Assembly: GCA_039679675.1 (NCBI GenBank)
Contig: JBDKUN010000030.1
Coordinates: forward strand, 743 to 64,742
Source of the DNA: Armatimonadota bacterium
Lineage (GTDB): Bacteria; Armatimonadota; UBA5829; DTLH01
Length of the DNA: 64,000 nt
Direction: 5' to 3'
Shown here: positions 8,407 to 36,220 of the stretch, in pieces
Position numbering within the stretch: the first letter of the stretch is position 1
How the letters are laid out: each line of letters starts with the position of its first letter
Program-made: the position numbers and the translations under genes
Notes under the pieces: generated by a model
The model's database searches: none
Seen by the model: only the letters and a program-made list of their open reading frames with translations
Told to the model about the DNA's origin: nothing

Positions 8407-11400
8407 TCAGAACAACCTCTGCACGCAGGTCGGCTGCTCCAGATTGGACGAGTTCTTCATCTTTTGAGTGTACGGCCCCAAGTCTGAATTATCCGCAGTA
8501 GGATCATTTCTCCAGATATCAGGGGTATACCACTCGATATAGTTCGGTGAGGAGTCTCGGTGGTAATCCACCTCGAACACCTCGCCGTTGAATTTGCTTC
8601 TGAACAGGTCGCCGATCTGACCAGCGTAGCTGTTCACGATAAGTATCCGGTTATTGGGCAGCATCTGCGCCCTGTACGGCATGAACGGTACCGGAACTAC
8701 AACATTATCCAGAGTAGACTCTTCTCCATTGACCGTGTTTACCTTGGTAATCTTCCTGGACAACGCAGCGTATTCTTTGGCAGTCAAATCCCAGATGATT
8801 TTGCCATCCGAGCCTTCCACCACATAGACCGCCGACGAATCGCAGATAAGCAGCCTCGGAAGAGTGGAATCCAAGGCATCGAAATACGTCGGGCCCGAAA
8901 GCGCGACCTTTGACCCATTACTGGCAGTCAACGTCGTAAGCTGGCTTACGATGACTGAATTGTCATCATAAGTCCACTGGAAGTCACCGGCACCCTCGCG
9001 GTATTTCATGGCGACTATTGCGCCGCCTAACTGCCCACCGCCTGTGCTTTCGGTCTTGACCAGATCATTCGCGGTTCCCAGTCCATAGTTCGAGAGCGAA
9101 GCCCAGACCTGGTTGATGTATATATTCGACCCAGACGATTTATCAACCCCGGAAATCAGCTTCACACTGTTATACGTGAACCGTTTGTCTCTGTCCGTCG
9201 TTCGGGATATCCAATTCAGCTGATGAATCGGCCTGCCGTTGCTGTCTGTCTTTACCGGGCCAAGTATTTGCCTGCTCGCATTTGCGTAATACCTGTCCAC
9301 TATATCAAGAATCCTGAAATTGCCGCTGTCAGCTACCATACAGTGGTTCAGATAATACCAATTACCGTCAATTTTCTCGAACTCGCTCCACATAATGGCA
9401 TCGCTTGGAGACTCAAGCTTTTTCGGCTCTCCGGAGCGAAGGAGACTCCTAAACGAATCATCGAACACTGTGCATGACCATGCTATCTGGCCGCCCCTGT
9501 CGATCCTGAGTATCCGGTCGTTGCCTGAATCGACAACAAGATAATCAGAGCCGTTATACTTCTGAGCGACAAGCGGCTTGTTCAGCGGCTGCGAGGTAGC
9601 TCCATAAATAGTCCCGGTTCCGGAGCCGCTGAGCGGCGCGTATTCTGAAACGGAATCACAGGACCATGAAACCTTGCCGTCCGTCCCGACTTCGAGTAAG
9701 CGGTGGTTGTCTGTCAGCAGGCTCAACTCGTTCTTGAAAAGATAAATCCCGCAGGGTGAAGGCACAACCAGCATACCGTTCCCGCCGGCAAGCGACGATC
9801 TGAAGCTCCCGGTCATGGTGTTGATATCCGGGTCGATGCGCTGTTTCATCTCCGCGATCTTGCCGGCATCGACTATCTTTGTCTTGGAGTCCTCCGGCGT
9901 CGCGTCTACTGGCACGGCGAATATGTAGCCGTCATCACAGGTAAAGTAAACATAATCGCCAAGGACTATTGGCGAACTCGATACACCGGAGCACGGAACA
10001 CCGTCATGGTCAGGCACAGCCATGGACCAAAGCAGGTTGTCCCAGCTGGAGAAATCTACCTGGTCCAGCGGAATAAGCTGGTGGTCGACGAATACCCATA
10101 CAGGAAGCGATGTCGAGAGCATGTTCGTCTGTATCTGCACACCACCCACTGTCAGACCCTGCAGCCTGATTCGGCTGAAATTACTGACCGTAATCGTTCC
10201 CGAATCGTAGTCTATCATATCGCTCGGCACTCTCGTTGCTGCATTGGCGGGTGTCAGAGTCGATGCGCCATCAGCGAATAGGAAATCCGGCTGCCAGACC
10301 GATACATCATACTTCCTGTCCGGCACAGATGGGTCCTTGAGTGACCTGTTCAGCCTGATCGTGAACTCCTGTCCAGCCTTGAGGCAGAGCAGATATCCTC
10401 TGGACATTGCCGAATTACCGGGATCATGAGTAGTAGCGGTGACAAACACTCTGTCGTTCGTTACCGCGGGAGTGCACTTAGCCTCAAGATTGGCGACCGG
10501 ATATATTATCTCCTTTTGCGGATCGGTCGGGTCCGGCAAGCTTGCCTGAACGCCCCAAAATCTGTCCGGCACTCCTGTCATGGAGTTTCTGGTCGCGTCA
10601 AGAAGCGACATCATACCCCCGGCTGTACTACTATCTGCAGCTGGATTAATGAAACTCCCTGCACCGTGCAGAAAATAATTAAAGCCGAGCTTCGCGGAGC
10701 GCGATGTACCGTCAAACCACATCGAGTAGATGGACGAGCGGCCCGAACCTGGAGTGTCTCCCCAATCGACTCCCATATAGAAGGTATCATTGGAACTTAT
10801 CGCTGGAGTCGATGCGGCTTCGAGCTGCTGAGTCAAAACGTCTCCCATGTTAGGCGGCAGTTCATAGTTTGGCGGTATAAAGTTCGTGACTTTGCTATAG
10901 TCTATCGCATAGGACATGTACACCTTGACATTAGGGCCCAGGACGCCGCTTGTTGTTCTGATCGTCACCTGTCCCACTGTACTCGAGATATCAGGCGTAT
11001 CCAGAGGGATAGAATTGCCTGCTCCGTCGACTGCCCACGCCTCTGGCGCCGGATATGACGATATTGGGAGCATGCCATAAGATGTTCTGAACTTGGCAGA
11101 CGTTGGATTGTATCTCAACATAGCCGGGCTGATGGGACTCAACTTGTCACTCGACACAAAGACCGGCAGCGAATAGATATAGTCGTTAGGCGAAGGAGAC
11201 ATTACTTTGGGCGGCCTCCCTATGACCGAGAGCATCTGCACTACGGCGCCGTTGGTCTGGTTCTTCACAAACGCAAGCGTCGGACCGGACTTGACCTTAA
11301 CAGGATTAGCTGAGTTCATGTTAAGAGGAAGCGACCAGTCAGAAGATTGATTGAACATGCTTTTTGAAGCTGCTTCCTTTAGCATCGGACTGTAGGCATA

Positions 11401-12861
11401 GATCTTCCCGTCGCGTCCGGCAACATAAATCCATCCGTTCTGCACGACCGGCGGCAGCAGCGCTCCGTCGCCATCACCAATCGAGCCTGTCCAAAGATCA
11501 TCTCGTAGAGTGTCAGAAGCTAAATTGGATGAGAGAGCACTAAACACATATACATGCCCATCCCTGCAGGTGACGAGCACGAAATCTCTCGGCTCAAGCG
11601 GATCAGCAGATGGATCCAGCATAGTTACTACTGTCGGGCTGGAAATCTCATCCGGGCAATTATGGCTCCAGATCACATCGCAGTCAGCATTTGCCCCATC
11701 GGGCACACCGTCATCCGCGACACCGTTCATGTCGATGTCGTTACCGGGGTTGGCATCCATCGCGTAGAGTGTATTACCTGATGAATAGAATATGATGCCT
11801 TTCCAGATAACAGGGCTGTTCTCTATGTCTCCCCTGCTGATCGCCTGGCTGCAGCGCCATTGTTTCAGAAGCGGTGCACCGAGAGTCTCGACGGAATAGC
11901 CTGTACGGCGATACTCTTTTCTGAATGTTGTATAGGAAGTCGCATACCCGACGACGTTATAAGCAAACCTTACATTAGCCGGAGAAGCGGCCATTATATT
12001 AATGTTGGATGAATTGAGATCCAGATGATCGGGAATAGGACTCGCCCCGTTAATTATCGGATTCTGGATATTTCCGCCTATGAAACCGGAAGTAAAAACC
12101 ACCCGGCCGCTGCCGTACTCTATTGCAGCGATTGTAGGTGGATCGCTGCTGATCCCGCTGCCGCTGGTGGAGACCAGAATCGGCGAAAGCGTGGTAGGGC
12201 TGGGAATCGACGGCCCCCAGCTTGATTCATACCCCGGATTTATGGCTTTGGAAGTCGAGCTGAGCGAAGCAAGCTCAAGCGGATTCAATCTATAAGGCGT
12301 CGTGACCAGCGGGTGAAGTGACTGCAGAAGCATCGGTGTTCCGCCGCCGCCCGATACGAAGTTTATACCAGGAAGGAAAAACTCATCCGCGCCGCTTGGG
12401 AACTTCATATTCCCGCCGTTATCCACCCAGAGACACCCGCCGCCGTCAACATACCTGCGGAGTTTGTCTCTATCGTCCATGGGGAATCTCACAGCCTCGT
12501 CCGCGCTCATATAGAGCACATCGAACTTGGCAAGGTTCTCGTATGTCGTATTCCCCAGCGAGACTTCCCAATATCCTGCATAGTTCTTATAGGCAGCATT
12601 ACCGCCTGCCAGCGGATTGACAAATGTCCAGCCATGCGGTTTGAGGTCGTCTCTCAGCCCCATTATATAGAAGATGTACGGAGCCATCGGCGCGGCTACA
12701 GCGTCTTTATTTATGCCGCTGTCTTTTCTCGGAAGCAGCACCCCCGCGTTAATAACATGCTGTTTATCGACATACGTCTGCGCGCCTGCGAACGCAATCT
12801 GCGCGAGCAGTATGGTTAGGACCAGTATAGCTATTGCTATATATGAAAATCTGCGTATCAT
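8407..12861 (-). CDS. 1484-aa secreted protein; putative PilY1-like pilus-associated adhesin (N-terminal GATase1/ThuA-like region, C-terminal beta-propeller-like repeats)
   Basis: Signal peptide MIRRFSYIAIAILVLTILLAQIAFAGA. N-terminal DVLYMSADEAVRFPMDDRDKLRRYVDGGGCLWVDNGG (ThuA/DUF4159-like). Repeated ...DG.IYA / ..W.. segments suggest PQQ-like propeller blades; sits immediately downstream of the pseudopilin genes in the same operon. Confidence 0.5.
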   Translation of the reverse strand: MIRRFSYIAIAILVLTILLAQIAFAGAQTYVDKQHVINAGVLLPRKDSGINKDAVAAPMAPYIFYIMGLRDDLKPHGWTFVNPLAGGNAAYKNYAGYWEVSLGNTTYENLAKFDVLYMSADEAVRFPMDDRDKLRRYVDGGGCLWVDNGGNMKFPSGADEFFLPGINFVSGGGGTPMLLQSLHPLVTTPYRLNPLELASLSSTSKAINPGYESSWGPSIPSPTTLSPILVSTSGSGISSDPPTIAAIEYGSGRVVFTSGFIGGNIQNPIINGASPIPDHLDLNSSNINIMAASPANVRFAYNVVGYATSYTTFRKEYRRTGYSVETLGAPLLKQWRCSQAISRGDIENSPVIWKGIIFYSSGNTLYAMDANPGNDIDMNGVADDGVPDGANADCDVIWSHNCPDEISSPTVVTMLDPSADPLEPRDFVLVTCRDGHVYVFSALSSNLASDTLRDDLWTGSIGDGDGALLPPVVQNGWIYVAGRDGKIYAYSPMLKEAASKSMFNQSSDWSLPLNMNSANPVKVKSGPTLAFVKNQTNGAVVQMLSVIGRPPKVMSPSPNDYIYSLPVFVSSDKLSPISPAMLRYNPTSAKFRTSYGMLPISSYPAPEAWAVDGAGNSIPLDTPDISSTVGQVTIRTTSGVLGPNVKVYMSYAIDYSKVTNFIPPNYELPPNMGDVLTQQLEAASTPAISSNDTFYMGVDWGDTPGSGRSSIYSMWFDGTSRSAKLGFNYFLHGAGSFINPAADSSTAGGMMSLLDATRNSMTGVPDRFWGVQASLPDPTDPQKEIIYPVANLEAKCTPAVTNDRVFVTATTHDPGNSAMSRGYLLCLKAGQEFTIRLNRSLKDPSVPDRKYDVSVWQPDFLFADGASTLTPANAATRVPSDMIDYDSGTITVSNFSRIRLQGLTVGGVQIQTNMLSTSLPVWVFVDHQLIPLDQVDFSSWDNLLWSMAVPDHDGVPCSGVSSSPIVLGDYVYFTCDDGYIFAVPVDATPEDSKTKIVDAGKIAEMKQRIDPDINTMTGSFRSSLAGGNGMLVVPSPCGIYLFKNELSLLTDNHRLLEVGTDGKVSWSCDSVSEYAPLSGSGTGTIYGATSQPLNKPLVAQKYNGSDYLVVDSGNDRILRIDRGGQIAWSCTVFDDSFRSLLRSGEPKKLESPSDAIMWSEFEKIDGNWYYLNHCMVADSGNFRILDIVDRYYANASRQILGPVKTDSNGRPIHQLNWISRTTDRDKRFTYNSVKLISGVDKSSGSNIYINQVWASLSNYGLGTANDLVKTESTGGGQLGGAIVAMKYREGAGDFQWTYDDNSVIVSQLTTLTASNGSKVALSGPTYFDALDSTLPRLLICDSSAVYVVEGSDGKIIWDLTAKEYAALSRKITKVNTVNGEESTLDNVVVPVPFMPYRAQMLPNNRILIVNSYAGQIGDLFRSKFNGEVFEVDYHRDSSPNYIEWYTPDIWRNDPTADNSDLGPYTQKMKNSSNLEQPTCVQRLF

Positions 12862-12918: not shown

Positions 12919-15639
12919 TTATGTAGGCTCTCCGTAATAGTAAAGCGATCTGCAGACAGGCAGACGCGGCGTAATAGGAAGCGGACGGCCATAATCGTCC
13001 TTACGTACCGGAGTCATCACCCCGCCGTTCTCATATACAGGCCAGCCGACCATCGAATCGTAAAGGAGCGTAAGGCCGTCTCCCTTATGCGCCGTTGCAA
13101 CACTGGACGTGCCGTATTTGTCAGGTATATTACTCCATTTTGAGTACCACTCGCTGACATCTCCGACGGATGCGGGCAGGTTTTCGGTGATCGCTCCATC
13201 TATGGTAATCTTGGTATCGAGCGGCTGCCCGAAAAGCGGCCATTTTTGGTTTACACCCCTGGGCCGGTATCCGTCCTTGCCGGTATCAGCGGCGTTCATG
13301 TTGAACCAGTTGCCTGGAATGATGAAAAACGACCGGTTCTGGGCATACATGACCGCTTCGATGCGAATATCCAGCGGCTGTATGGTGAATGCCGACAATA
13401 AGTAATTATTTCTGGAGTAAGATGACTGATCGAGTCCGATCTCGAAATAGTTCGGCCTTCCGATAGCGTTGTATAACCCGGCCTGATCGAACCCGTTCGC
13501 ACTATCGAATATTTTGTGCTCGAACAAGCTCGAAAGCCCTGTGCCCTCTAGGCAATATCGCGGGTCGCCGCAGCCATAGACCCAATCCGGCGGCAGATAC
13601 TGGCTATTCTGCCCAATATGGAGGAGTCCCTGTGTGCCGCTTCCGCGATTCAGCCACATATTGATGTAAGACGGGCCGTATTGTCCGGCATGCCTTACGA
13701 AAAGCATCGTATCGTTACCCATCTGCCAGCTTCCGGTCGGCGGGCCGAACGAGAACGACGAGAAAAACGTGGTCGAAGGTTCCGGCGTCACTATCAGGTG
13801 ATACGGCGGCTGCCCCGTTCCCGAATCAGACCCGATTGAAGTCGGTCCGAGCGAAGACAGGAGCGATACGAACTGAGTAGTATTTACGCAGACATACTGC
13901 TTGGCAAGAAGCGATACTGCGGAAGTCGGATCGACATTACCATCTGTATCGCGATATTTCAGCAAATTGCCTTCCACATAGATGATCCCGCCGGAGACCA
14001 CAGTAAGCTGCTTGCCCTGGGCCAGCATACCTTTGATACGTATATTCCCTTCGGCATAGATAACGCCGTTTCGGTCGATGGTTATATCCTGCGCTGTCTT
14101 GTTTCCGCTGTCATCCACATTGTAATGAGTGAACGTCTGTGTCCCCTGCGGATACGGAATAGTTATGGTAGAACCCTTGTCGTTCATCGGAACCCCGAAA
14201 GAGTTGTACCAAACAGACTTCTTGCCGTAAAGGGCGTCACTCCTCTTGCTCTTGATGTCTGTCCTTGTGATAGTGATATCCGGCTGGTTGTCCCCGTCCG
14301 TATCGTATGGGTTCAAGGTGATGACAACGCCTGGCGGGACGTAATAGGGTCCCTGCCAGTAGGCGGACATATCGTTGTTCGGCTTCATCCAGTCCGCTCT
14401 GGGGGTGTAACCTCCGAAAAGTGTCTCACTTTCCTGCTGAATATCATCGCTGTTATCGATATAAATGCCGCGGCCCCAACCATATCGGCCGCTGTTCACC
14501 CACCTTTGGGTTCCCCAGCCCTGCTGGAGCCATATACCCGAGTCGCGCGTAAGCGCTATGTATCTGGAGACCTTGGTAGGCGTGTCTTCATCGTCCAAAA
14601 GCGGCGGTTCCAGCCGTTTGATGCCTCTGGCGTTTTTGCCGGCATCCGGGCTATCAGAACCATCGCGGTAAAAACCATATGCTGTAGTAAACGGCTGAGT
14701 ATAATCCGACGGCTGGACAGGATAACTGTTCACCGTGCCTCCGTTGATTACCTCATAAAGAGTTACAGGGACCGGCTGGCTGCTATTGTTGACATCAACA
14801 TTTTCATGTTTGATCGTTCCGGAGACTTCCACCATATCGAGCGGCATGTAATCGGTATTTGAGCCGTCCTGATAACTGGTTCCCCTGAGCACCAGGTCTA
14901 TTCTATTGCCGTACCATTCAAGGTTGCCGTTTACCCTGATCGGCGCCCCACGGACGCCCTCCCCTGCTGTTGTTTCGTTGCCGTATTTCACATTGAACCC
15001 GGCAGCGCCGAGCGGAATATCCTCTGATTTTTTCTCCAGATTTGTCACGAACCTGAGATAGTCCGTAACGCCGATCGGTTTATATGCAGTGAGTTCCCGG
15101 CGAAGACGGACATTGCTGTCCCAGGTGGTAGGGTCGTCATTTTCGACGGTACCGATCCGGCCTATGGACTCGATCTTTATATATTTGGACATCGGGTCTT
15201 TCGGATCCGGATTGTAGCTGACACGAAGCAGGTACCGGCCATCTCCCATTCTGAAGGTAGTATACCCGCCGGTCGGGCCGGTGCTGCCATCTGTAGCTTC
15301 GGCAGCAGAATAAGGCCTTAGCCATTGAAAATCGGGGTTAAGTGTGTTATCGACTCCTGCAGTACTGGTCTTCGGCATATTGTCCGGTACAGGACGCCAA
15401 TCAGCGCCGTCATCGCTCGTCATGAGCATGTTATCCGCGTAATGTATGCCTGCTTCCGACAGGTATTGTGCCGTAATGACGTCTCTCGACCGTCCGGCGC
15501 GGCCCTGGTTCCGGGCGACGAGCACGACAAACACTACACTGATGAACGCGAGCAAAAGCATCACTATGATTGCGATCACCAGTGATTGCCCACGCTCGTT
15601 TCCAAGCTGCACCTTGCTTTTATTCATCGATTTCATCAT
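12919..15639 (-). CDS. Giant (906 aa) GspK/PilX-like minor pseudopilin lacking Glu+5
   Basis: N-terminus KVQLGNERG/QSLVIAIIVMLLLAFISVVFVVLV has a class-III signal-peptide-like leader plus hydrophobic helix, but Ile instead of Glu at +5 (a GspK hallmark); last pilin gene in the operon, as gspK is. Confidence 0.55.
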   Translation of the reverse strand: MMKSMNKSKVQLGNERGQSLVIAIIVMLLLAFISVVFVVLVARNQGRAGRSRDVITAQYLSEAGIHYADNMLMTSDDGADWRPVPDNMPKTSTAGVDNTLNPDFQWLRPYSAAEATDGSTGPTGGYTTFRMGDGRYLLRVSYNPDPKDPMSKYIKIESIGRIGTVENDDPTTWDSNVRLRRELTAYKPIGVTDYLRFVTNLEKKSEDIPLGAAGFNVKYGNETTAGEGVRGAPIRVNGNLEWYGNRIDLVLRGTSYQDGSNTDYMPLDMVEVSGTIKHENVDVNNSSQPVPVTLYEVINGGTVNSYPVQPSDYTQPFTTAYGFYRDGSDSPDAGKNARGIKRLEPPLLDDEDTPTKVSRYIALTRDSGIWLQQGWGTQRWVNSGRYGWGRGIYIDNSDDIQQESETLFGGYTPRADWMKPNNDMSAYWQGPYYVPPGVVITLNPYDTDGDNQPDITITRTDIKSKRSDALYGKKSVWYNSFGVPMNDKGSTITIPYPQGTQTFTHYNVDDSGNKTAQDITIDRNGVIYAEGNIRIKGMLAQGKQLTVVSGGIIYVEGNLLKYRDTDGNVDPTSAVSLLAKQYVCVNTTQFVSLLSSLGPTSIGSDSGTGQPPYHLIVTPEPSTTFFSSFSFGPPTGSWQMGNDTMLFVRHAGQYGPSYINMWLNRGSGTQGLLHIGQNSQYLPPDWVYGCGDPRYCLEGTGLSSLFEHKIFDSANGFDQAGLYNAIGRPNYFEIGLDQSSYSRNNYLLSAFTIQPLDIRIEAVMYAQNRSFFIIPGNWFNMNAADTGKDGYRPRGVNQKWPLFGQPLDTKITIDGAITENLPASVGDVSEWYSKWSNIPDKYGTSSVATAHKGDGLTLLYDSMVGWPVYENGGVMTPVRKDDYGRPLPITPRLPVCRSLYYYGEPT

Positions 15640-15653
15640 TGCTCGCCTTATCC

Positions 15654-17432
15654 TTATCTCAACAGGTTTCTCACACGGACCTTGTTCGTAAGCTCCATTG
15701 GATGAACTTTCTGGGTGTTCCGGTCGTAGTATCGAATGCCCATGGTTATCTGCATAAGAGTCTTAGTCGTATAATTGCCTATGACCACATCACCATCACG
15801 GTTACACTGGAATTTGTAGCTTATCTCGAACCTGGAAACTCCAGTGGACATTGTCTCCGGGATCACTTCGTCGTAGGCCGGGCTGAAAACAATCCAACCA
15901 ACCCTTTTGTCCGCGTTCGCGCTGTCGCTCATGCCGTAATCTATCTTGTACTGGTTCCTTCTCGGATCGCCGAGATTGAACGGCACGCGCTCATACCTGA
16001 CCATCCTGATTTCTTCCGGCTGCAGCCCCGGAGTCATATCCGGGCCCATAACCACTTCGCTTCCAGGGACTATCCTCGGCTTAAATTCGGAGTTCGACGG
16101 AACATTGCTGAACATCGTGAGCCGGTATATACGGGCCGGAGCGTTGCCGGGAGCGGTATTGGCCGCACGTTGGTTCATGGCAATAATATCGTCCTGGTGT
16201 ATCACATCCGAATCAGGAAAATCGAACCGCACCTCGCCTTTGACAGGATCGACATCAAACGCGACTTCGGGATTATTCGCTGGGAAAACTTTGTTCGTCT
16301 CGTAATCGGTGATGTCGAAAACAAAGGTCGGTTTACCTGCAGAATCATACCTATTGATTATCAGGTGTTTATTATCACCTTGGCGCGCGGTCCGGTACCA
16401 GATATCGTTGGCCTGCGTTGCCGGATTGTAGCGGTTCAGCGACACATTGTACATCTCAAGGTTGGAATCCCCTACCGAACTCGCCCACGCACCGTAACTG
16501 GCTCTAAAAACAGTCGGAATGCTCACCGGTGACTCTTTGCCCTCATCGGTGACATATGCCGGTTTGAAGGTGTCATCCGTTACCGGGGACGACTGGAACC
16601 GTACGCTCGGAACTACTGCCACGATCTTGTCTTTCGCATCGTTCATCCTCAAAAGCACGAGGTCGGTATCCGCCTGCGGGCCGACAGGCTTCGAGACAGC
16701 CTTCCAATTCTCCCAGAAAGGCTTACCATTTCCACCATTAGGAATATCCGTGCTGTAGAAGAAATCCGGGTCGTCGAGGATGGGTTTACCGTCAGTATCG
16801 AATTTGAAAAGGTTTTTATCGTATGGATCGACTTCAGCACGGTAGAGAATAAACCCGTTCAACGGAGAAGCGGAATCAGCCCAGTCCCGGTAGTTCGCTG
16901 CGGGATATGATGTAGAATTTGCATTGGGATCGTTATTGACCAGACCCACGAAATAACGCACGATCTTACCATCGGCAACGAGAGGCTCCTTCGGACGGGC
17001 TTCCACATCGGTAGACCCACACACTGGGCACGGCGGCCATGCGTCATCGCCTCGTTCATAATCACGAGGCTCGCTCTCGTCATGTTGAGGGTTGTTGCAG
17101 TGCATAACCAGCTTGGGCATTATAAGGTCGATCTTGCCGTACAGCGCCGTTATTTGTTCCCTGGTGCCGTTCGGCTGTTCGACCGGAAAGACAATCGGGC
17201 TGTTCGAGTTGTCATAGACAAACATCGCCTGGCTGACCTCCCGGCTCACCTGTTCCAGGGTCGTCCGGGCGGTATCCTGGGCCATAACCATCGCATTGGC
17301 CTGGCTGGTCATGTTGAATGTCTGGACGATAGGATAAAAGATCAGGCCCATCAGGATAATCGTGATAGTAATGACCACGAGAAGCTCAATTAACGTAAAA
17401 CCTGCTCTTGTCCTCTTATTGAACATAACCAC
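15654..17432 (-). CDS. Large (592 aa) prepilin-type N-terminal cleavage/methylation domain pseudopilin
   Basis: MVMFNKRTRAG/FTLIELLVVITITIIL is the canonical G|FTLIE prepilin motif with Glu+5, followed by a large periplasmic domain. Confidence 0.75.
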   Translation of the reverse strand: MVMFNKRTRAGFTLIELLVVITITIILMGLIFYPIVQTFNMTSQANAMVMAQDTARTTLEQVSREVSQAMFVYDNSNSPIVFPVEQPNGTREQITALYGKIDLIMPKLVMHCNNPQHDESEPRDYERGDDAWPPCPVCGSTDVEARPKEPLVADGKIVRYFVGLVNNDPNANSTSYPAANYRDWADSASPLNGFILYRAEVDPYDKNLFKFDTDGKPILDDPDFFYSTDIPNGGNGKPFWENWKAVSKPVGPQADTDLVLLRMNDAKDKIVAVVPSVRFQSSPVTDDTFKPAYVTDEGKESPVSIPTVFRASYGAWASSVGDSNLEMYNVSLNRYNPATQANDIWYRTARQGDNKHLIINRYDSAGKPTFVFDITDYETNKVFPANNPEVAFDVDPVKGEVRFDFPDSDVIHQDDIIAMNQRAANTAPGNAPARIYRLTMFSNVPSNSEFKPRIVPGSEVVMGPDMTPGLQPEEIRMVRYERVPFNLGDPRRNQYKIDYGMSDSANADKRVGWIVFSPAYDEVIPETMSTGVSRFEISYKFQCNRDGDVVIGNYTTKTLMQITMGIRYYDRNTQKVHPMELTNKVRVRNLLR

Positions 17433-17499: not shown

Positions 17500-19158
17500 T
17501 TAATCCGAAGATTTTTTCGCAATAATCGAATCCAGATCGACATGCCGCCACTTTTCAGTCTCGCGCCAGATGACTCTCGCTCTCACGGAAACGCCGTTGA
17601 CCGAGAGAATCCTTGTCGGCTCGTTGCTGAGATCGATATAAGTGCTATCGATGCCGCCATATCGGAGCAACGCGTCGGATGTCTTATGGCACTCGCCAAG
17701 GACCCTTCTGGTCTGCCCGTTCAGAGCGTATTCGTAATCGACCGAGATCGTATGACAGGCATTACAGGCCGCGAGCCACAACCGCTGTGGGTTATTTGAT
17801 TCATCAATGGCATAACTCTTATAATCCAGCTGGCCGGAGTTGTAGTCTCTATCGTACTGTACATAGGCTTTTTGGAACTGGAGCGACCAATCGCCTTCTG
17901 CTTTGTAGTAGAACCGGATATTCCGCCCCGCCGGAGAAATAGTAACATTTGAATTTCCACCGGTCCCGAAAAGCTCAATATTCTCGGGTAGATCTACTGT
18001 ACCGTTCTCATAATCGACCCACTCGGAGTCAAACGCAATCTGCCGGCCTGACTCAAGGTCCACAGCGATCATATCGGGGACAAATTTGGTTCCATTCGGC
18101 CCCGGAACGCTAAATCGCGGGTTCAGTCCTGCATACGGTTCACCGTTCAACTCCATGGACACGCCGCTCTCTTTTATGTGGTTGAGCGTCATATGCACAC
18201 GGTAAGGCGCATTCGTAGGAACGCGCTTGTCCTCATGGATAATCTCCAGATCGAGAATATCGTAATCGATCCGCGCCTTGAGCGGACGGCCGAACTCCTG
18301 TTGGCTGTAGCCGATTGGGTTGAACGATATAATACCGAGCAACGGATCCACCATCATGTATTCATACGGATCAGATGACCAGCTTGTAACCTCTGAAAAC
18401 CCACGTGCCACTGTGTCGCTGTATCTGTCGATACCCGCGTACGAAGCACCGGATGCCATACGATCCTGGATCGCCGGACCGAAATTGATCCACCCCTCTG
18501 TCCCGCCCGGAACTTCTATTTTTATGTTCGTGACCGTCCGCAGGTGAGGATTACTGCTTCCGTTCGGCGTTTCCCACCAGGAACAGCTGAGATAATAAAT
18601 ATGTGTCTGGCTCGATTCGCGGAAGCATACCGACAGGTTATCATAATCTATGGCATACTGGGAGGACCTAAGGAACTTCCATGGCTCCGTGTTGTCATCG
18701 GAATCCATCACCCGTCGTGATAGATTGCTTCCCTTTATGACAATTCCACCGTGAGTTGTATCTATCGGGCTGAAAGAGAGCACATAAGTCGAACCGCTCA
18801 ATGGCCCAGTGGACCATCCGCCGAAGGGTATGCGAACAGTCTCGCCTATGATCCGGCGAAAAGAGGTAGCATTGTCATCACCGACCGGCGGTCCCGGAAA
18901 ACAATCGTTAAGGACAACACCTGATGAATCTATCGGCAGAACGCCATCCGGCAGGTTCTCGGAATTGTTTTTCCACCGCTCCATCTCGAACTGAGCAAGC
19001 CGACCGGCCAGAGTCACATGTTCGGCATGGCGGACAGACCGGAACCCAGGCGGGTACAGCCTGACCACAGTCAGAATTCCCACCACGAGCACGATCAATA
19101 CAACCAGCACCTCGACTAACGAGGTGCCCCGATTATCTTTAGCTCTCAAGCACACCAT
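17500..19158 (-). CDS. Large (about 552-559 aa) prepilin-type pseudopilin
   Basis: ORF 17500..19179; leader MVCLRAKDNRG/TSLVEVLVVLIVLVVGIL has Gly-1 and Glu+5. Start is either 19179 or the internal ATG at 19158, which gives a short leader. Confidence 0.7.
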   Translation of the reverse strand: MVCLRAKDNRGTSLVEVLVVLIVLVVGILTVVRLYPPGFRSVRHAEHVTLAGRLAQFEMERWKNNSENLPDGVLPIDSSGVVLNDCFPGPPVGDDNATSFRRIIGETVRIPFGGWSTGPLSGSTYVLSFSPIDTTHGGIVIKGSNLSRRVMDSDDNTEPWKFLRSSQYAIDYDNLSVCFRESSQTHIYYLSCSWWETPNGSSNPHLRTVTNIKIEVPGGTEGWINFGPAIQDRMASGASYAGIDRYSDTVARGFSEVTSWSSDPYEYMMVDPLLGIISFNPIGYSQQEFGRPLKARIDYDILDLEIIHEDKRVPTNAPYRVHMTLNHIKESGVSMELNGEPYAGLNPRFSVPGPNGTKFVPDMIAVDLESGRQIAFDSEWVDYENGTVDLPENIELFGTGGNSNVTISPAGRNIRFYYKAEGDWSLQFQKAYVQYDRDYNSGQLDYKSYAIDESNNPQRLWLAACNACHTISVDYEYALNGQTRRVLGECHKTSDALLRYGGIDSTYIDLSNEPTRILSVNGVSVRARVIWRETEKWRHVDLDSIIAKKSSD

Positions 19159-19301
19159 AATCAGCTCCCAGTTGAGCATTATCTGTTTTTAATACTCTAC
19201 GAGTAACGATTCACCCTTACACGCCACTTCGAAACAAATACGTCACTCTGCACAACTAATACATCACCCTAAACGAAGGGCCATCGCCCTGAACGAGGAG
19301 A

Positions 19302-19431: not shown

Positions 19432-20190
19432 CTATTTATTAGGCCCAATCCTCCAGCGGGATCCGGGATCGGAGGTAGTATTCGAGCCTTCTATGTTAGA
19501 AATCGGAACCATATCGGAATGTCCGTCCAAAAACAACACCGGGACCATCGACTTGGCGTCGCCTTGGCGCTGATGGTAGCTGCACCAGGTCACGACAGTA
19601 TCATCTGACGGGTTGCGGAACCTGAGCTGCCTTTTGTAGTCATAAGCATCATCTGAAGTAGTCGATGCGGCTTTGTATTGGCCTACATTATTCGTGGTAT
19701 CAGCCCACTTGGTGGTATACCGGACATCGTACGGGTAATTTGCCGTAGCAGTATCGTTTACTACTCCCGGTGTGTATATATCATAACTGCTGTATGCATA
19801 GTACCAGTAATCCTTGCCGTCATCTTTGGTCACTTTAACTGTCGCAGTGGTTGATGACGTTACTGCTAGCGGGCAGTGGAAGCCTTTGATAGACTTGACA
19901 TACTCCGGGTACAGACCACCGCCGGTCCTGGCACGCTCCAGCGGAACAGGTGTATTACCCTGAAACTCGACGTAACCAGCGAGTGAGTCCGGATACCGCC
20001 TGTTGTCCTGCTGGAACATCTTGATCGCTATAGCCAGGTTATGCAGGTTAGTCATACACTGAACCCGTCTAGCATTGTTCTTCACGGACCCCATTACCGG
20101 GAAAATAATCGCCGAAAGTATCGCAATGATCGCGATTACTGTGAGGAGTTCCACCAGGCTGAATCCCTGCTTACCGCGCATCGTTTTCAT
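19432..20190 (-). CDS. Prepilin-type pilin with C-terminal H-X9-DG-type (DUF1559-like) domain
   Basis: MKTMRGKQG/FSLVELLTVIAIIAIL prepilin leader with Glu+5; C-terminal TWCSYHQ...VLFLDGHSD motif; TNLHNLAIAIKMFQQD region typical of PVC-type DUF1559 pilins. Confidence 0.8.
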   Translation of the reverse strand: MKTMRGKQGFSLVELLTVIAIIAILSAIIFPVMGSVKNNARRVQCMTNLHNLAIAIKMFQQDNRRYPDSLAGYVEFQGNTPVPLERARTGGGLYPEYVKSIKGFHCPLAVTSSTTATVKVTKDDGKDYWYYAYSSYDIYTPGVVNDTATANYPYDVRYTTKWADTTNNVGQYKAASTTSDDAYDYKRQLRFRNPSDDTVVTWCSYHQRQGDAKSMVPVLFLDGHSDMVPISNIEGSNTTSDPGSRWRIGPNK

Positions 20191-20302: not shown

Positions 20303-20935
20303 TCATTTCGGACGCGTATTCCACCTGCTTCCGACTGATCCATTATTGCCTTCGACGGCTGCAGCTGAGCATATGTCTGAATGACCATCATAAAACAACA
20401 CCGGCAGGCCGCCCTCTCTGTGATAGCTGCACCAAGTGATTACAGTGTTATCTTCAGCTTTTTTTGCACCGGGAAGCGATGGGTTGTAACGCAGCGCATC
20501 TGTGCCGAGCTTCACAACACCATCCGATTCTTTCGGCGTATATACATCGTAGCTGTCGTAAGCGTAGTATCTGCGGACTTTACCGCCTACCAGTATCTCC
20601 GCCACAGTATCTGTTCGTTCTACAGGTGATAACCGGCAGTGGAACCCTTTCATTACCTTAATGTACTCAGGATAGAGTCCTCTGCTCTTTCTAAAATGAA
20701 CAGCCTTCCCTGCGTCCATCTCTACATAACCCGCGAGACTTTCAGGAAACCCTTTATAGTCCTGTTCATACATCTTAAATCCAATAGCTATGTTGTGCAG
20801 GTTCGTCATACATGTGACTTTTGGACTAATAGGATCAACATACGCAAACATAGGAACCAGCACTGCGATAACAACTACAACCGCGAGTATTGCAACTATG
20901 GCCCCAAAAACGCTCCAGCCTCTACTGTTACGCAT
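20303..20935 (-). CDS. H-X9-DG-type pilin paralog with degenerate prepilin leader
   Basis: Paralog of 19432..20190 (shared CMTNLHNIAIGFKMYEQD, SLAGYVE, TWCSYHREGGLPVLFYDGHSD), but N-terminus MRNSRGWSVFGAIVAILAVVVV lacks Glu+5 and the F/T/L/I/E pattern. Confidence 0.7.
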   Translation of the reverse strand: MRNSRGWSVFGAIVAILAVVVVIAVLVPMFAYVDPISPKVTCMTNLHNIAIGFKMYEQDYKGFPESLAGYVEMDAGKAVHFRKSRGLYPEYIKVMKGFHCRLSPVERTDTVAEILVGGKVRRYYAYDSYDVYTPKESDGVVKLGTDALRYNPSLPGAKKAEDNTVITWCSYHREGGLPVLFYDGHSDICSAAAVEGNNGSVGSRWNTRPK

Positions 20936-20979: not shown

Positions 20980-21849
20980 CTAGAACCCGTGATGAAGAAA
21001 CTGCATATACCAATTGATTAACTGATTTCCAAAGAACATCGTGATCAGCACGCCACTGACCATCATCGGGCCGAACGGCAGCGTATTGCTGTTTTCCTGC
21101 CCTTTATGGGCGATCATCCACCCGATCCCTATAATACTGCCTGCAAAAACGGCGATGAAAAACGACAATAACGCCAATCCCAGCCCCAAACCGCTCGTAA
21201 CAGCCCCGCAAAAGACTGCACCGATCGCACCGGCAAGTTTGACATCACCGCCGCCCATCGCCTCCTTTTTGAAAGCTCTTGTGCCAAGCTCCGCTATAGC
21301 TAAAAATATGCCGCCGCATATAAACAATCCGGCGACAGACCACAACATCGGAATCTCAATACCGGTAAACGGTACTGGAATATGGAGGAGGGTATGCCCC
21401 TCCTCATGCATCACTAATCCGTAAATGTCCCGAACTACCCCTATGCTCATTCCGAACCACACCGAAAGCTGGTCTGGAATGACCCAGTGCTCCAGGTCGA
21501 TAAAAAACACCGCTATCAGCGCAGCCGTAAAAAGCGCGTAGAGAAAGAAATTGACCGCAAAACCATATTCGGCGAAAAGCGCCACGGATATAAGCCCTGT
21601 AATCAACTCTACAGTAAAATACCGCCAGCTTATCGGCTCGCCGCAGTAGCGGCATTTACATCTAAGCATCAAAAAGCTCAAAAGCGGAATATTATCTATC
21701 CATCTAAGCTTTTTGTTGCATTTTGGGCAGTGCGACGGCGGATAGATGATCGACTGCTCTATCGGCATCCGGTAGATACAGACGTTCAAAAAGCTGCCGA
21801 TTACAGCGCCATAAATAAATACAACAAGCGCCCAAAACCAAAACTGCAC
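20980..21849 (-). CDS. pilD: Prepilin peptidase (A24 family, PilD/GspO-like)
   Basis: 289 aa polytopic protein with N-terminal CPKCNKKL...CKCRYCGEPIS tetracysteine zinc-finger typical of PilD and multiple TM helices. Confidence 0.85.
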   Translation of the reverse strand: MQFWFWALVVFIYGAVIGSFLNVCIYRMPIEQSIIYPPSHCPKCNKKLRWIDNIPLLSFLMLRCKCRYCGEPISWRYFTVELITGLISVALFAEYGFAVNFFLYALFTAALIAVFFIDLEHWVIPDQLSVWFGMSIGVVRDIYGLVMHEEGHTLLHIPVPFTGIEIPMLWSVAGLFICGGIFLAIAELGTRAFKKEAMGGGDVKLAGAIGAVFCGAVTSGLGLGLALLSFFIAVFAGSIIGIGWMIAHKGQENSNTLPFGPMMVSGVLITMFFGNQLINWYMQFLHHGF

Positions 21850-21854
21850 TAAGA

Positions 21855-23078
21855 CTACTCCGATGCGCCAGAAAGATTCTGAATTACCGCAATAAGCGGC
21901 AGGAAGATCGATATAACAATAAACCCTACCGCTCCTCCGAGGAATACGATCATAACAGGCTCAATAGTCGCCGTAAGACTGTCAAGCGCGGCATCAACCT
22001 CAGCCTCATAGAACTCAGCGACTTTATGAAGCATCGGATCGAGTGCACCGGACTCCTCACCGATGGAGATCATCTGGACAACCATCGGAGGGAACAGTTT
22101 ACTTCTCTGCAACGGGTCTCCGATCCGGTCACCTTCCCGAATCCTTGCCCTTGCTTCAAGTATGGCATCGCTTACAATCTCATTCGAGACCGTTCCTGCA
22201 ACCGTTTCAAGTGCCTGCAGGATCGGGACTCCTGAAGCAAGCAGTGTCCCAAGCGTTCTCGAGAACCTGGCAAGAACGATTTTGTGATTCAGTTTTCCAA
22301 AGACCGGAGCCTTCAGTTTAAACCTGTCATAAACACGCCTGCCGGCCTTCGACTTGATAAACAGCTTGAAAGCGATGACAAACACCACCAGGCATACGAT
22401 CATGATATACCACTTGCTGGTCAGAAAGTGGCTGAATCCCATCAGCAATCTTGTAGGCGCAGGAAACTCTTTGACACCGAGGTCATCGAACAGGGACATA
22501 AACTTAGGCAGGATGAACGTAACCAGGCCGATTACGATACCGACAGCCACGATCATAACAATGATCGGATAAGTCATCGCTGACTTGACCTTTCGCCGTA
22601 GTTCCATGTCGCCTTCAAGGAACTGCGAAAGCCTCTGTAAGCTTTCCTCAAGAACACCGCCGACTTCGCCTGCCTTGATCAGACCGATAAACAGGTTCGA
22701 GAACACGTTCGGGTACTTGCTCAGCGCTCTTGAGAGTGTCTGGCCTGCCTCTACTTCCATCTGCATGTCGTTGATGATCCTTTTGAGCTTCGGGCTTACC
22801 GTCTGCTCCGCAAGGACGGACAGGCACCTGACCATCGACACACCGGCGTCAATCATAGTGGAAAACTGACGGCAAAAGACCGAAAGGTCGCTCAGCTTTA
22901 TCCTTCCGAACCCTCCGCCAGCATTCTTCTTCTTAGCGCCTTTGGTTTCTTTGATGTCGACAACCGTAAATCCCTGCTCGGTCAGCCTCCGCCTCAGCAA
23001 TCCTTCACTTTCGGCCTCGACTGTTCCGGGGATCTGGTTTCCGCTTGCATCACGTACTGTGTATGCAAAATTTGGCAT
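21855..23078 (-). CDS. pilC: Type IV pilus / T2SS inner-membrane platform protein (PilC/GspF family)
   Basis: 407 aa with duplicated GspF-like cytoplasmic domains and 3 TM segments; N-terminus MPNFAYTVRDASGNQIPGTVEAESEGLLRRRLTEQGFTVVDI is a typical PilC opening. Confidence 0.85.
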   Translation of the reverse strand: MPNFAYTVRDASGNQIPGTVEAESEGLLRRRLTEQGFTVVDIKETKGAKKKNAGGGFGRIKLSDLSVFCRQFSTMIDAGVSMVRCLSVLAEQTVSPKLKRIINDMQMEVEAGQTLSRALSKYPNVFSNLFIGLIKAGEVGGVLEESLQRLSQFLEGDMELRRKVKSAMTYPIIVMIVAVGIVIGLVTFILPKFMSLFDDLGVKEFPAPTRLLMGFSHFLTSKWYIMIVCLVVFVIAFKLFIKSKAGRRVYDRFKLKAPVFGKLNHKIVLARFSRTLGTLLASGVPILQALETVAGTVSNEIVSDAILEARARIREGDRIGDPLQRSKLFPPMVVQMISIGEESGALDPMLHKVAEFYEAEVDAALDSLTATIEPVMIVFLGGAVGFIVISIFLPLIAVIQNLSGASE

Positions 23079-23201
23079 ATGCCTTCACTCCTATCCTGAT
23101 TCGTATTCCTAATCCGTAGTTCGAAGGTATTTATAAAGTATGAACTAAGGCCGGCCTTACAGTCTGCAAGAACACACGGACTGGACTACGAAACTTTTGT
23201 A

Positions 23202-24398: not shown

Positions 24399-24479
24399 TC
24401 CCTATTGCCTCCGACTAAAGAAAGTTCAGAGTTCAAAGTGCAGTGTGCACAGTTCATGCACCCGCACCAAATACCTCTA

Positions 24480-36103: not shown

Positions 36104-36220
36104 AACACGCTGAAGGCGGGTACAATTTGCCCACCCAAACATCATTATACAGAAAGGCAGTGGGTGAGACAAACGGTCAGGCTTAGCAGAAAGATCAAAG
36201 GGGTAAATATTTGCGATGAT

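What the first reader, a model, noticed from the sequence alone, without database searches (positions are those of the whole stretch)
12919..15639. 906-aa GspK-like terminal pseudopilin lacking Glu+5
The leader ERG|QSLVIAIIV has the prepilin Gly-1 and hydrophobic helix, but Ile at +5. Among pseudopilins, loss of Glu+5 is characteristic of GspK / tip-capping subunits. Position as the last pilin gene matches gspK. At 906 aa it is nearly three times the size of GspK, so most of the protein is uncharacterised extracellular or periplasmic domain.
Basis: partly seen in the sequence, partly recalled or inferred. Interest (0 to 1): 0.55.

Follow-up and report, generated by a model that had tools for sequence, protein, structure and literature searches.

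The report
Giant pilus-tip cap pilin, Armatimonadota
This gene most likely encodes the subunit that caps the tip of a retractable type IV pilus in an Armatimonadota bacterium: a pilin-like base carrying a roughly 600-residue beta-rich head, an uncatalogued family but a design already known from Thermus and cyanobacteria.

Summary
A 906-codon ORF lies on the minus strand at 12919-15639. Its N-terminus is MMKSMNKSKVQLGNERG|QSLVIAIIV..., with Gly-1, Gln+1 and Ile+5. In 221 of 264 family members the G|Q[STAGV][LIVM] motif is present and +5 is always I, V, L, M or F, never Glu. The three pilin genes upstream keep Glu+5.

The gene is the last prepilin-type gene of an operon: pilB-pilT-pilC-pilD, major pilin, 559-aa PilV/GspI-like, 592-aa PilW/GspJ-like, this gene, then a 1484-aa secreted beta-propeller protein. 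This order is kept in 80 Armatimonadota loci.

AlphaFold2 (pLDDT 92.7) gives a 57-residue helix, a four-strand sheet, then a large beta-rich mass. Covariation shows the last ~100 residues pack back onto the N-terminal module, so residues ~211-804 are an insertion.

It is not a GspK family member. No Pfam, NCBIfam, PDB-sequence or Foldseek match to GspK, PilX or ComZ was significant. The operon has a PilT ATPase, so it is pilus-type, not a type II secretion system.

Best reading: a PilX/PilK/GspK-position tip-capping minor pilin built like Thermus ComZ and cyanobacterial PilX/HpsA. It is a new variant of a known kind, of moderate interest.

The parts
12919..15639 (-). Target CDS, 906 aa plus stop. 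It is the founding window copy of an unnamed family found across Armatimonadota.
15589..15639 (-). Residues 1-17: a short basic leader ending in ..ERG. The inferred prepilin-peptidase cleavage site follows Gly17.
   Evidence: The sequence itself. G17 and Q18 are at least 90% conserved. An A24 prepilin peptidase lies in the same operon. Cleavage itself is inferred.
15418..15588 (-). Residues 18-74: one continuous helix (alpha1). The first 25 or so residues are hydrophobic, +5 is Ile22, and an S/A-E-A-G motif lies at 61-64.
   Evidence: AF2 helix 18-74 in the full model and 16-74 in the truncated model. Sub-threshold PilX_N hits in 10 of 39 N-terminal fragments.
15010..15588 (-). Residues 18-210: the N-terminal pilin-like module, made of alpha1 plus four antiparallel strands at 127-131, 134-141, 154-162 and 180-187.
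   Evidence: Covariation pairs 68-138, 69-187 and 50-157 link helix and sheet; 139-157, 141-155 and 131-136 link strands.
13228..15009 (-). Residues about 211-804: the inserted beta-rich head. It has beta-helix or solenoid-like and jelly-roll (CBM-like) parts.
   Evidence: AF2 secondary structure. Weak local Foldseek hits to CBM6/22/28/35/61, Cry toxin domains and pectate-lyase-like tailspikes. FapA beta-solenoid sub-threshold in 4 of 27 members. The boundaries are inferred from covariation.
14278..14304 (-). Residues 446-454, DTDGDNQPD: a DxDxDG-type loop that may bind Ca2+. It is conserved in most members of the family but not all.
   Evidence: Alignment. FG-GAP sub-threshold in 2 of 27 members. 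The function is inferred.
13957..14070 (-). Residues 524-561, NGVIYAEGNIRIKG...VVSGGIIYVEGNLLKY: the most conserved beta-solenoid-like rungs.
   Evidence: Invariant N524 G525 V526 A529 G531 G537 S549 I553 Y554 G557. These were the peptide patterns that recovered the 80 loci.
12922..13227 (-). Residues 805-906: the C-terminal segment that folds back onto the N-terminal module.
   Evidence: Top covariation pairs 196-819 (z 14), 77-892 (10.5), 208-821 (9.0), 191-818 (7.9) and 66-902 (6.9). After block shuffling the highest score between the two blocks is 1.09, against 4.19 in the real data.
12931..12990 (-). Residues 884-903, GRPLPITPRLPVCRSLYYYG: the conserved C-terminal motif and terminal beta-strand (L899-x-Y901-x-G903).
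   Evidence: The motif is present in 70 of 75 orthologues. AF2 gives a strand at 901-903. There is a weak antiparallel ladder with strand 180-187.
15654..17432 (-). 592-aa minor pilin in the PilW/GspJ position. Its leader is ..AG|FTLIELL, with Glu+5.
   Evidence: N_methyl E 3.8e-6. N-terminal similarity to Verru_Chthon cassette protein C and HpsC. Synteny.
17500..19179 (-). 559-aa minor pilin in the PilV/GspI position. Its leader is ..RG|TSLVEVL, with Glu+5.
   Evidence: PilV TIGR02523 E 1.6e-7, below the cut-off and covering the N-terminus only..
19432..20190 (-). 252-aa probable major pilin (G|FSLVELL). It has N_methyl plus the N-terminal part of DUF1559 and is GspG-like.
20980..26246 (-). 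Machine genes: pilB-like ATPase (24480-26246), PilT/PilU-family ATPase (23202-24398), pilC/gspF platform (21855-23078) and A24 prepilin peptidase (20980-21849).
8407..12861 (-). 1484-aa secreted protein (Sec signal peptide) with beta-propeller repeats. It sits in the PilY1/MshQ position and has a conserved extreme C-terminus, LxxPxx[AGV]xR.
   Evidence: It is not a PilY1 family member by Pfam.

Best explanation
The protein is the apical (PilX/PilK/GspK-position) minor pilin of a type IVa-pilus-like machine of an Armatimonadota bacterium. The steps below are inferred unless marked as shown. It inserts into the inner membrane through its N-terminal hydrophobic helix. The operon's A24 prepilin peptidase cleaves it after Gly17. 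It then joins the 559-aa (I/V-like) and 592-aa (J/W-like) minor pilins through their alpha1 helices to form the priming complex, on which PilB polymerises the major pilin. As the first and topmost subunit it has no subunit above it whose N-terminus its residue 5 would have to neutralise. That explains why Glu+5 is replaced by a hydrophobic residue throughout the family, while the three partners keep it (shown). Its architecture is modular (shown by AF2 plus covariation). A pilin-like base consists of residues 18-210 plus the returning C-terminal 100 or so residues, including a conserved terminal beta-strand. That strand probably completes the base sheet in cis, as in GspK, ComZ and CpaL. The base is interrupted by an insertion of about 600 residues built of beta-helix and jelly-roll parts. 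This insertion would sit on the pilus axis as a bulky head that plugs or caps the tip and probably binds a ligand, most plausibly a glycan or a surface. The neighbouring 1484-aa beta-propeller protein is the likely PilY1/MshQ-type partner at the tip.
For: Leader and loss of Glu+5 are conserved in 221 of 264 members with no Glu at +5, while the three upstream pilins keep Glu+5. Gene order is major pilin, I-like, J-like, this gene, large secreted protein, and it holds in 80 loci spanning Fimbriimonadales, Chthonomonadales, Armatimonas and Abditibacteriota. Operon context: PilB-like ATPase, PilT family (512 bits, above the 319 cut-off), PilC (best match is the Thermus type) and an A24 peptidase. 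The AF2 model has pLDDT 92.7 and pTM 0.90, with a 57-residue alpha1 and four antiparallel strands followed by beta-rich mass. The N-module alone also folds confidently (pLDDT 86.6). Covariation gives helix-sheet pairs typical of a pilin fold. The strongest couplings of all link residues 66/77 with 902/892 and residues 191-208 with 818-821, far above a block-shuffle null. The C-terminal motif is conserved in 70 of 75 orthologues. PilX_N is the most recurrent sub-threshold Pfam hit for the N-terminus (10 of 39). There are precedents. ComZ has a GspK-like pilin domain with a ~380-residue beta-solenoid inserted before the last strand (PMC6561018). All cyanobacterial PilX proteins carry such an insert, and PilX lacks Glu5 (bioRxiv 10.64898/2026.02.12.705559). 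The terminal strand is supplied in cis by GspK and CpaL or in trans by PilY1 and MshQ, and I-J-K synteny is near universal (PMC13533445). Fimbriimonas has fimbriae and PilB/C/D/Q/M/T genes (PMC4072686).
Confidence: 0.65

Rival explanations
1. It is a true GspK: the tip pseudopilin of a type II secretion system, forming the cap of a periplasmic piston that expels folded proteins.
For: It has a Glu+5-less prepilin leader in the K position. The major subunit scores best against GspG, at 41 bits and below the cut-off. The PilB-like ATPase and the platform protein score almost as well against GspE and GspF as against PilB and PilC, all below their cut-offs. Denise et al. 2019 reassigned some Armatimonadetes systems to T2SS (PMC6668835).
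Against: The operon contains a PilT/PilU-family ATPase above its curated cut-off, and it is conserved next to pilC in related loci. T2SSs lack a retraction ATPase (established knowledge). No T2SSK domain is found in any of the 27 full-length or 39 N-terminal sequences scanned. No GspC/L/M/D genes lie in the window. A head of about 600 residues plus a 1484-aa partner fits an exposed tip better than a periplasmic piston, though this point is inference.
Confidence: 0.1
2. It is a bitopic membrane-anchored protein with an uncleaved signal anchor. Its beta-helix and CBM-like ectodomain would act in the periplasm or on the cell surface, for example as a polysaccharide lyase, hydrolase or binder, or as an assembly factor. 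It would be co-expressed with the pilus but not be part of the filament.
For: There is no scored similarity to pilins. Weak local fold hits go to pectate-lyase-like tailspikes, depolymerases and carbohydrate-binding modules. The +1 residue is the unusual Gln, a few relatives have Ala at -1, and Arg-rich sequence follows the helix.
Against: Gly-1 is near invariant and is preceded by a short basic leader. The 57-residue alpha1 plus four-strand sheet is not what a plain anchor needs. The gene has a fixed position after two Glu+5 minor pilins in 80 loci. Glu+5 is replaced by a hydrophobic residue only in this gene. No catalytic family is detected.
Confidence: 0.12
3. A variant of the best explanation: it is a tip minor pilin, but its base sheet is completed in trans by the conserved extreme C-terminus of the 1484-aa neighbour. 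This is PilY1/MshQ-type licensing. The protein's own C-terminal strand would then play another role.
For: The 1484-aa protein is always the next gene. It has a Sec signal peptide. The last 9-14 residues carry LxxPxx[AGV]xR in 49 of 62 orthologues, although the rest of the tail diverges. There is a precedent in MshQ and PilY1 (PMC13533445).
Against: The target's own C-terminal tail covaries strongly with its alpha1 C-terminal third (66-902, 77-892) and weakly with strand 180-187. It is also highly conserved. This is what a strand supplied in cis predicts. The neighbour's motif contains a Pro and was not shown to form a strand. No multimer modelling was possible.
Confidence: 0.1

Closest known systems
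ComZ of Thermus thermophilus (PDB 6QVI; Salleh et al. 2019, PMC6561018)
   Same: Both are large pilin-like proteins in a minor-pilin operon. Both have a pilin-type base interrupted by a bulky beta-rich insertion placed before the last beta-strand, and both are argued to fit only at the pilus tip. Both hosts belong to the Terrabacteria-type lineages (my own knowledge). The operon's PilC scores best against the Thermus-type PilC model.
   Different: There is no detectable sequence similarity, and ComZ was not among the top 50 Foldseek hits. The target is 906 aa against about 554 aa. Its insert is about 600 residues with jelly-roll parts as well as solenoid-like rungs. ComZ binds DNA, and no such evidence exists here. 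Here a PilY1-position protein follows the gene.
Cyanobacterial PilX subfamilies, including the HpsA-like PilX-EPS (bioRxiv 10.64898/2026.02.12.705559)
   Same: [quoted passage not shown] The insert is proposed to act as a tip plug or adhesin. The J-position neighbour here has N-terminal similarity to HpsC.
   Different: The target does not match the NCBIfam library, which to my recollection includes an HpsA model (0 families at E<=1). According to that preprint, cyanobacteria generally lack PilY1/PilC homologues, whereas this operon always carries a 1484-aa beta-propeller protein downstream. The I-like and J-like partners here are also very large (559 and 592 aa).
GspK/XcpX (T2SS) and PilX/PilK (proteobacterial T4aP) core minor pilins
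   Same: All are the last gene of the I-J-K series, have a prepilin-type leader with Gly-1 and lack Glu+5. The inferred role is the apical subunit of the priming complex. The terminal beta-strand is probably supplied in cis, as in GspK.
   Different: There is no T2SSK domain and no alpha-domain insert. PilX_N matches only below threshold. The target is about three times (GspK) to four and a half times (PilX) larger. The +1 residue is an invariant Gln.
CpaL/TadG of Tad pili (PMC13533445) and modular pilins of Streptococcus sanguinis (PilB with a vWA module, PilC with a lectin module; PMC8179133, PMC9934059)
   Same: The principle is the same: a pilin module carries a functional module displayed at the tip. 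In CpaL the middle 470 or so residues are an insertion, and the extreme C-terminus returns as a beta-strand.
   Different: The machine type differs (Tad pili, or pili of a monoderm bacterium). No vWA or concanavalin-type lectin domain is detected here. The Tad/TadG N-terminal Pfam model matches below threshold in only 3 of 39 sequences.

Membership tests
GspK (T2SS minor pseudopilin K) | Prepilin-type leader with Gly at -1 followed by a hydrophobic helix | tested here: met
   ..NERG|QSLVIAIIVMLLL. G17, Q18 and L20 are at least 90% conserved. The motif is present in 221 of 264 members. Cleavage itself was not tested.
GspK (T2SS minor pseudopilin K) | No Glu at +5 | tested here: met
   +5 is I, V, L, M or F in all 221 members with the motif, and never Glu. 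The partner pilins keep Glu+5.
GspK (T2SS minor pseudopilin K) | T2SSK domains (pilin fold with an alpha-helical insert) recognisable by the Pfam or NCBIfam models | tested here: not met
   No family at E<=10 (Pfam) or E<=1 (NCBIfam) for the window protein. T2SSK was not hit in any of the 27 full-length or 39 N-terminal sequences.
GspK (T2SS minor pseudopilin K) | Structural match of the pilin domain to GspK (3CI0) | tested here: inconclusive
GspK (T2SS minor pseudopilin K) | T2SS gene context (GspC/D/L/M present, no retraction ATPase) | tested here: not met
   A PilT/PilU-family ATPase is in the operon, at 512 bits against a cut-off of 319. No GspC/L/M/D was found among the window ORFs scanned.
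PilX/PilK-class core minor pilin of T4aP (functional class) | Last of the I-J-K minor pilin series, directly before the large tip-associated protein | tested here: met
   The order 252 (major), 559 (PilV-like), 592 (J-like), 906, 1484 holds in the window and in 80 loci.
PilX/PilK-class core minor pilin of T4aP (functional class) | PilX_N (PF14341) N-terminal domain | tested here: inconclusive
   It is the most frequent hit, but only below threshold: 10 of 39 N-terminal fragments with a best E of 0.074, and none for the window copy.
PilX/PilK-class core minor pilin of T4aP (functional class) | Co-encoded T4aP machine (PilB, PilT, PilC, PilD) | tested here: met
   PilQ and PilMNO are not in the window.
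PilX/PilK-class core minor pilin of T4aP (functional class) | Located at the pilus tip and needed to prime assembly | not testable with these tools
   This needs genetics, proteomics of sheared pili, or cryo-ET.
[quoted passage not shown] | N-terminal alpha1 plus beta-sheet base, with the chain returning to the base at the C-terminus so that the bulk is an insertion | tested here: met
   AF2 secondary structure. Strongest covariation pairs are 196-819, 77-892, 208-821, 191-818 and 66-902, against a block-shuffle null maximum of 1.09 and a real maximum of 4.19.
[quoted passage not shown] | Insertion point between the penultimate and last strand of the pilin sheet, with the last strand supplied in cis | tested here: inconclusive
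   AF2 gives a terminal strand at 901-903 and the L-x-Y-x-G motif is conserved. The ladder 899-185, 901-183, 904-181 reaches only z 3.4-3.9.
[quoted passage not shown] | The insert is a triangular beta-solenoid | tested here: inconclusive
   FapA beta-solenoid is sub-threshold in 4 of 27 members. Weak Foldseek hits go to pectate-lyase-like beta-helices, and also to jelly-roll CBMs.
[quoted passage not shown] | Sequence homology to ComZ | tested here: not met
   Profile searches of the PDB sequences gave no pilin or ComZ hit at E<=10.
HpsA / Verru_Chthon cassette protein A (NCBIfam models recalled from memory) | Match to the NCBIfam models | tested here: not met
   0 NCBIfam families at E<=1 for the target. 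Only the 592-aa neighbour resembles HpsC and cassette protein C, and only at its N-terminus.
PilY1/PilC tip adhesin (for the 1484-aa neighbour) | PilY1/PilC beta-propeller domain (Pfam) | tested here: not met
   Only DUF4159, PQQ_2 and a generic beta-propeller model were hit, and there was no PDB sequence hit. The protein is analogous by position, signal peptide and conserved C-terminal tail only.

The most novel reading that the evidence does not exclude
Armatimonadota pili may carry an outsized four-protein tip organelle of about 3,500 residues (559 + 592 + 906 + 1484 aa), in which every core minor pilin is three to five times the classical size. The 906-aa cap would combine both known licensing modes. 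Its own C-terminal strand would complete its base in cis, and the conserved tail of the 1484-aa beta-propeller protein would dock in trans. Its beta-helix and CBM-like head would be a glycan-binding or glycan-cutting device. The pilus would then be a retractile tool for capturing or adhering to polysaccharide, not a simple adhesin.
Probability: 0.15. Interest if true: 0.6.

Novelty: new variant of a known kind. Interest (0 to 1): 0.35.

Why it matters
The finding gives a testable function to a large, conserved protein family that no database names. The family has 655 clusters at 50% identity and no Pfam or NCBIfam model, and its host phylum is barely cultured. It extends the 'pilin base plus bulky beta-rich tip plug' design, known from Thermus ComZ and cyanobacterial PilX/HpsA, to Armatimonadota. 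Here the design occurs together with a PilY1-position protein and with unusually large I-like and J-like partners. That combination bears on two questions. One is how tip complexes are licensed, by a strand supplied in cis or in trans. The other is how very large tips cross the outer membrane. In practice, the conserved five-gene module is a ready marker for annotating these operons.

Tried and rejected

2. Foldseek with the full model gave only local jelly-roll and beta-helix hits with TM about 0.1. Foldseek with a separately predicted N-module (residues 1-215) gave nothing significant. A fold-level link to GspK or ComZ could therefore be neither shown nor excluded.

3. Profile searches of PDB sequences with the whole family and with the N-module gave no pilin hit. 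A weak beta-agarase match to the GADWRP loop (E 0.098) was dismissed as chance.

4. A first mean-field DCA that used gaps as a state was dominated by indel columns and was discarded. The analysis restricted to gap-free columns and run in the zero-sum gauge is the one used.

5. A profile search of the 5.8-billion-protein set with the N-module alone recovered only fragments of the same family and no named relatives.

6. A downstream start that would remove the leader was considered and rejected. The residues upstream of Met27 are conserved at the protein level across the phylum.

7. Horizontal spread outside Armatimonadota was considered. A few contigs are labelled Propionibacteriaceae, Sedimentisphaerales, Akkermansiaceae or Lysobacteraceae. 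They carry the same synteny or are partial sequences, so mis-binning is more likely. This was not resolved.

8. PDB sequence searches with the 1484-aa and 592-aa neighbours gave nothing useful.
Full report
OBSERVATION. The ORF at 12919-15639 is real but lies on the minus strand. It encodes 906 aa from an ATG that sits 14 nt after the TAA stop of the preceding gene, with an AAGG 7 nt upstream. An identical protein is deposited as a hypothetical protein of an Armatimonadota MAG. There are 209 word-index homologues, nearly all full length, and an exhaustive HMMER scan finds 655 clusters at 50% identity with E<=1e-3, of which 257 have E<=1e-30. None carries a Pfam domain or an informative name.

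LEADER. In alignments of 27 and 116 members, G17, Q18 and L20 are at least 90% conserved. Of 264 retrieved members, 221 have G|Q[STAGV][LIVM] within the first 150 residues. In these the +5 residue is I (136), V (39), L (37), M (5) or F (4), never Glu. Most of the rest are fragments or mis-started sequences, with a few variants such as A|QS or G|FTLIL that also lack Glu+5. The three upstream genes keep canonical leaders in orthologous loci: G|F[ST]L[VI]E, G|[TA]SL[VI]E and G|FTL[IVM]E. The loss of Glu+5 is therefore specific to this gene and is ancient.

CONTEXT. All genes from 26246 down to 6431 are on the minus strand with short gaps between them. In order they are:
- a PilB-like ATPase (T2SSE plus MshEN domains);
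- a PilT/PilU-family ATPase (512 bits against a curated cut-off of 319);
- a PilC/GspF platform protein, whose best model is the Thermus-type PilC;
- an A24 prepilin peptidase;
- a 210-aa pilin paralogue;
- a 252-aa GspG-like pilin;
- a 559-aa protein whose N-terminus resembles PilV;
- a 592-aa protein whose N-terminus resembles HpsC, Verru_Chthon cassette protein C and GspJ-type pilins;
- the target;
- a 1484-aa protein with a Sec signal peptide and beta-propeller repeats;
- hemN-like and tauE-like genes.

In 80 loci from one genome per species, the order pilin, 559, 592, 906, 1484 never changes. The loci are nearly all Armatimonadota, including Fimbriimonadales, Chthonomonadales, Armatimonas and Abditibacteriota. 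In most lineages pilB, pilT, pilC and pilD lie directly upstream. This matches the near-universal I-J-K(-PilY1/MshQ) synteny described by Ellison et al. (PMC13533445). The PilT gene argues for a retractile pilus and against a type II secretion system, although the ATPase and platform proteins score almost equally against the GspE and GspF models. Denise et al. also listed T2SS-like systems in this phylum. Fimbriimonas ginsengisoli is fimbriated and encodes PilB, C, D, Q, M and PilT (PMC4072686).

STRUCTURE. AlphaFold2 with the 116-sequence alignment gives a confident model (pLDDT 92.7, pTM 0.90). It has one helix spanning residues 18-74, then four antiparallel strands (127-131, 134-141, 154-162, 180-187), then about 700 residues that are almost all beta, ending in a short strand at 901-903. 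Residues 1-215 predicted alone keep the same helix and sheet (pLDDT 86.6). Coordinates are not exposed by the tool, so I inferred tertiary contacts from covariation. This was mean-field DCA on 291 sequences (effective number 206) over gap-free columns of residues 18-215 and 781-906.

Control pairs fit a pilin roll. Helix-to-sheet pairs are 68-138, 69-187 and 50-157, and strand pairs are 139-157, 141-155 and 131-136. The five strongest couplings between the N- and C-terminal blocks (five of the seven strongest overall) are 196-819 (z 14), 77-892 (10.5), 208-821 (9.0), 191-818 (7.9) and 66-902 (6.9). When the C-terminal block is permuted among sequences, the highest score between the two blocks falls from 4.19 to 1.09, and the number of pairs above 1.0 falls from 76 to 3. 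The last 100 or so residues therefore pack onto the N-terminal module, and residues about 211-804 form an insertion. A weak antiparallel ladder (899-185, 901-183, 904-181; z 3.4-3.9) suggests that the conserved terminal strand (L899-x-Y901-x-G903, present in 70 of 75 orthologues) pairs with strand 180-187. This signal is at the ceiling of the null and remains unproven.

WHAT THE HEAD LOOKS LIKE. Foldseek finds only local, low-TM similarities. They go to jelly-roll carbohydrate-binding modules, Cry-toxin domains and MAM domains, and to pectate-lyase-like beta-helices of phage tailspikes and depolymerases. Four of 27 members give sub-threshold FapA beta-solenoid hits around the invariant NGVIYAEGNIRI.G...IY.EGN.LK rungs. 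A DTDGDxxxD loop at 446-454 resembles Ca2+-binding DxDxDG loops; this is inference only. No catalytic family is detected.

COMPARISON WITH KNOWN FAMILIES. Membership of GspK is not supported. There is no T2SSK hit in any member, no PDB sequence hit, no Foldseek hit, and the operon is not a T2SS. PilX_N is the most frequent N-terminal Pfam hit, but only below threshold (10 of 39, best E 0.074). Functionally and architecturally the closest precedents are:
- Thermus ComZ, which has a GspK-like pilin domain with a ~380-residue beta-solenoid inserted before the last strand and was argued to be a tip pilin (PMC6561018);
- cyanobacterial PilX proteins, which all carry such an insert, include an expanded HpsA-like subfamily, and are proposed to act as a tip plug where PilY1 is absent (bioRxiv 10.64898/2026.02.12.705559);
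- CpaL/TadG, in which a middle insertion is dispensable and the C-terminal strand returns in cis (PMC13533445).

The Armatimonadota family differs in four ways. It has no detectable sequence relationship to these proteins. Its head is larger and mixed in composition. Its I-like and J-like partners are very large. A PilY1-position protein is always present, and its extreme C-terminus is conserved (LxxPxx[AGV]xR in 49 of 62 orthologues).

MECHANISM. The following are shown: the conserved Glu+5-less prepilin-like leader, the K position in a T4aP-type operon, the base-plus-insertion architecture, and conservation across the phylum. The following are inferred: cleavage by the operon's peptidase, assembly with the 559-aa and 592-aa proteins into the priming complex, apical position, a terminal strand supplied in cis, a ligand-binding or plug role for the head, and partnership with the 1484-aa protein.

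The main rivals are a true T2SS GspK (0.10), an uncleaved membrane-anchored ectoprotein or enzyme (0.12), and strand completion in trans by the 1484-aa protein (0.10). My confidence in the best explanation is about 0.65.

VERDICT. This is a new, uncatalogued variant of a known kind, the modular tip-capping minor pilin. Interest is moderate (0.35). It annotates a large family of unknown function and offers a natural system that contains both a strand apparently supplied in cis and a PilY1-position partner. The principle itself is already established elsewhere.

Noticed in passing
window 20303-20935 (-): A 210-aa paralogue of the 252-aa major pilin (37% identity, E 8e-49). Its leader is degenerate (..SRG|WSVFGAIV, with no Glu+5 and no FxLxE). 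The closest related locus, L001 (89% identical target), has no room for this gene between pilD and the pilin, so it looks like a recent duplicate that may no longer be a polymerisable pilin.
   Followed up: partly
window 8407-12861 (-), last 12 codons; loci L001-L080: The 1484-aa secreted beta-propeller protein always follows the target. Its extreme C-terminus keeps the motif LxxPxx[AGV]xR plus 0-5 residues in 49 of 62 orthologues, while the preceding tail diverges. This is the pattern expected if the tail docks into a partner, as the PilY1 and MshQ C-termini do. The protein also has an N-terminal DUF4159 hit.
   Followed up: partly
window 15654-17432 and 17500-19179 (-): The I-position and J-position minor pilins are 559 and 592 aa, about three to five times the size of classical GspI/PilV and GspJ/PilW. 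Only their first 60-80 residues match any model. The rest is uncharacterised and is conserved across the phylum.
   Followed up: no
loci L037-L050, L055, L059, L066, L069, L071, L073, L076 (mostly Fimbriimonadales): In these lineages the five-gene pilin module is intact, but no pilB, pilT, pilC or pilD homologue is detected in the ~5 kb upstream of the major pilin. The module and the motor genes are therefore separable.
   Followed up: no
L016 (labelled Propionibacteriaceae UBA6122), L031 (Sedimentisphaerales), P0274 (Akkermansiaceae, partial), P0288 (Lysobacteraceae, partial): These family members sit on contigs assigned to other phyla. L016 and L031 carry the typical Armatimonadota synteny. 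Mis-binning is likely, but transfer was not excluded.
   Followed up: no
window 14278-14304 (-), residues 446-454 of the target: A DTDGDNQPD loop of the DxDxDG type lies inside the head. It is conserved in most subfamilies but missing in one clade (for example P0099-P0108). It recalls the Ca2+ site of PilY1 that tunes extension and retraction; that comparison is from memory and was not tested.
   Followed up: no
window 34628-34996 (-): A small ORF with DUF5615 and PIN-like domains (E 6.5e-22). It looks like the toxin of a toxin-antitoxin pair and lies next to alaS.
   Followed up: no
window 36086-38683 (+): An 865-aa protein with a receiver domain, four PAS domains and an HATPase_c_2 (anti-sigma-factor-kinase-like) domain. 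Its ORF overlaps that of the divergent neighbour by about 150 nt as called.
   Followed up: no
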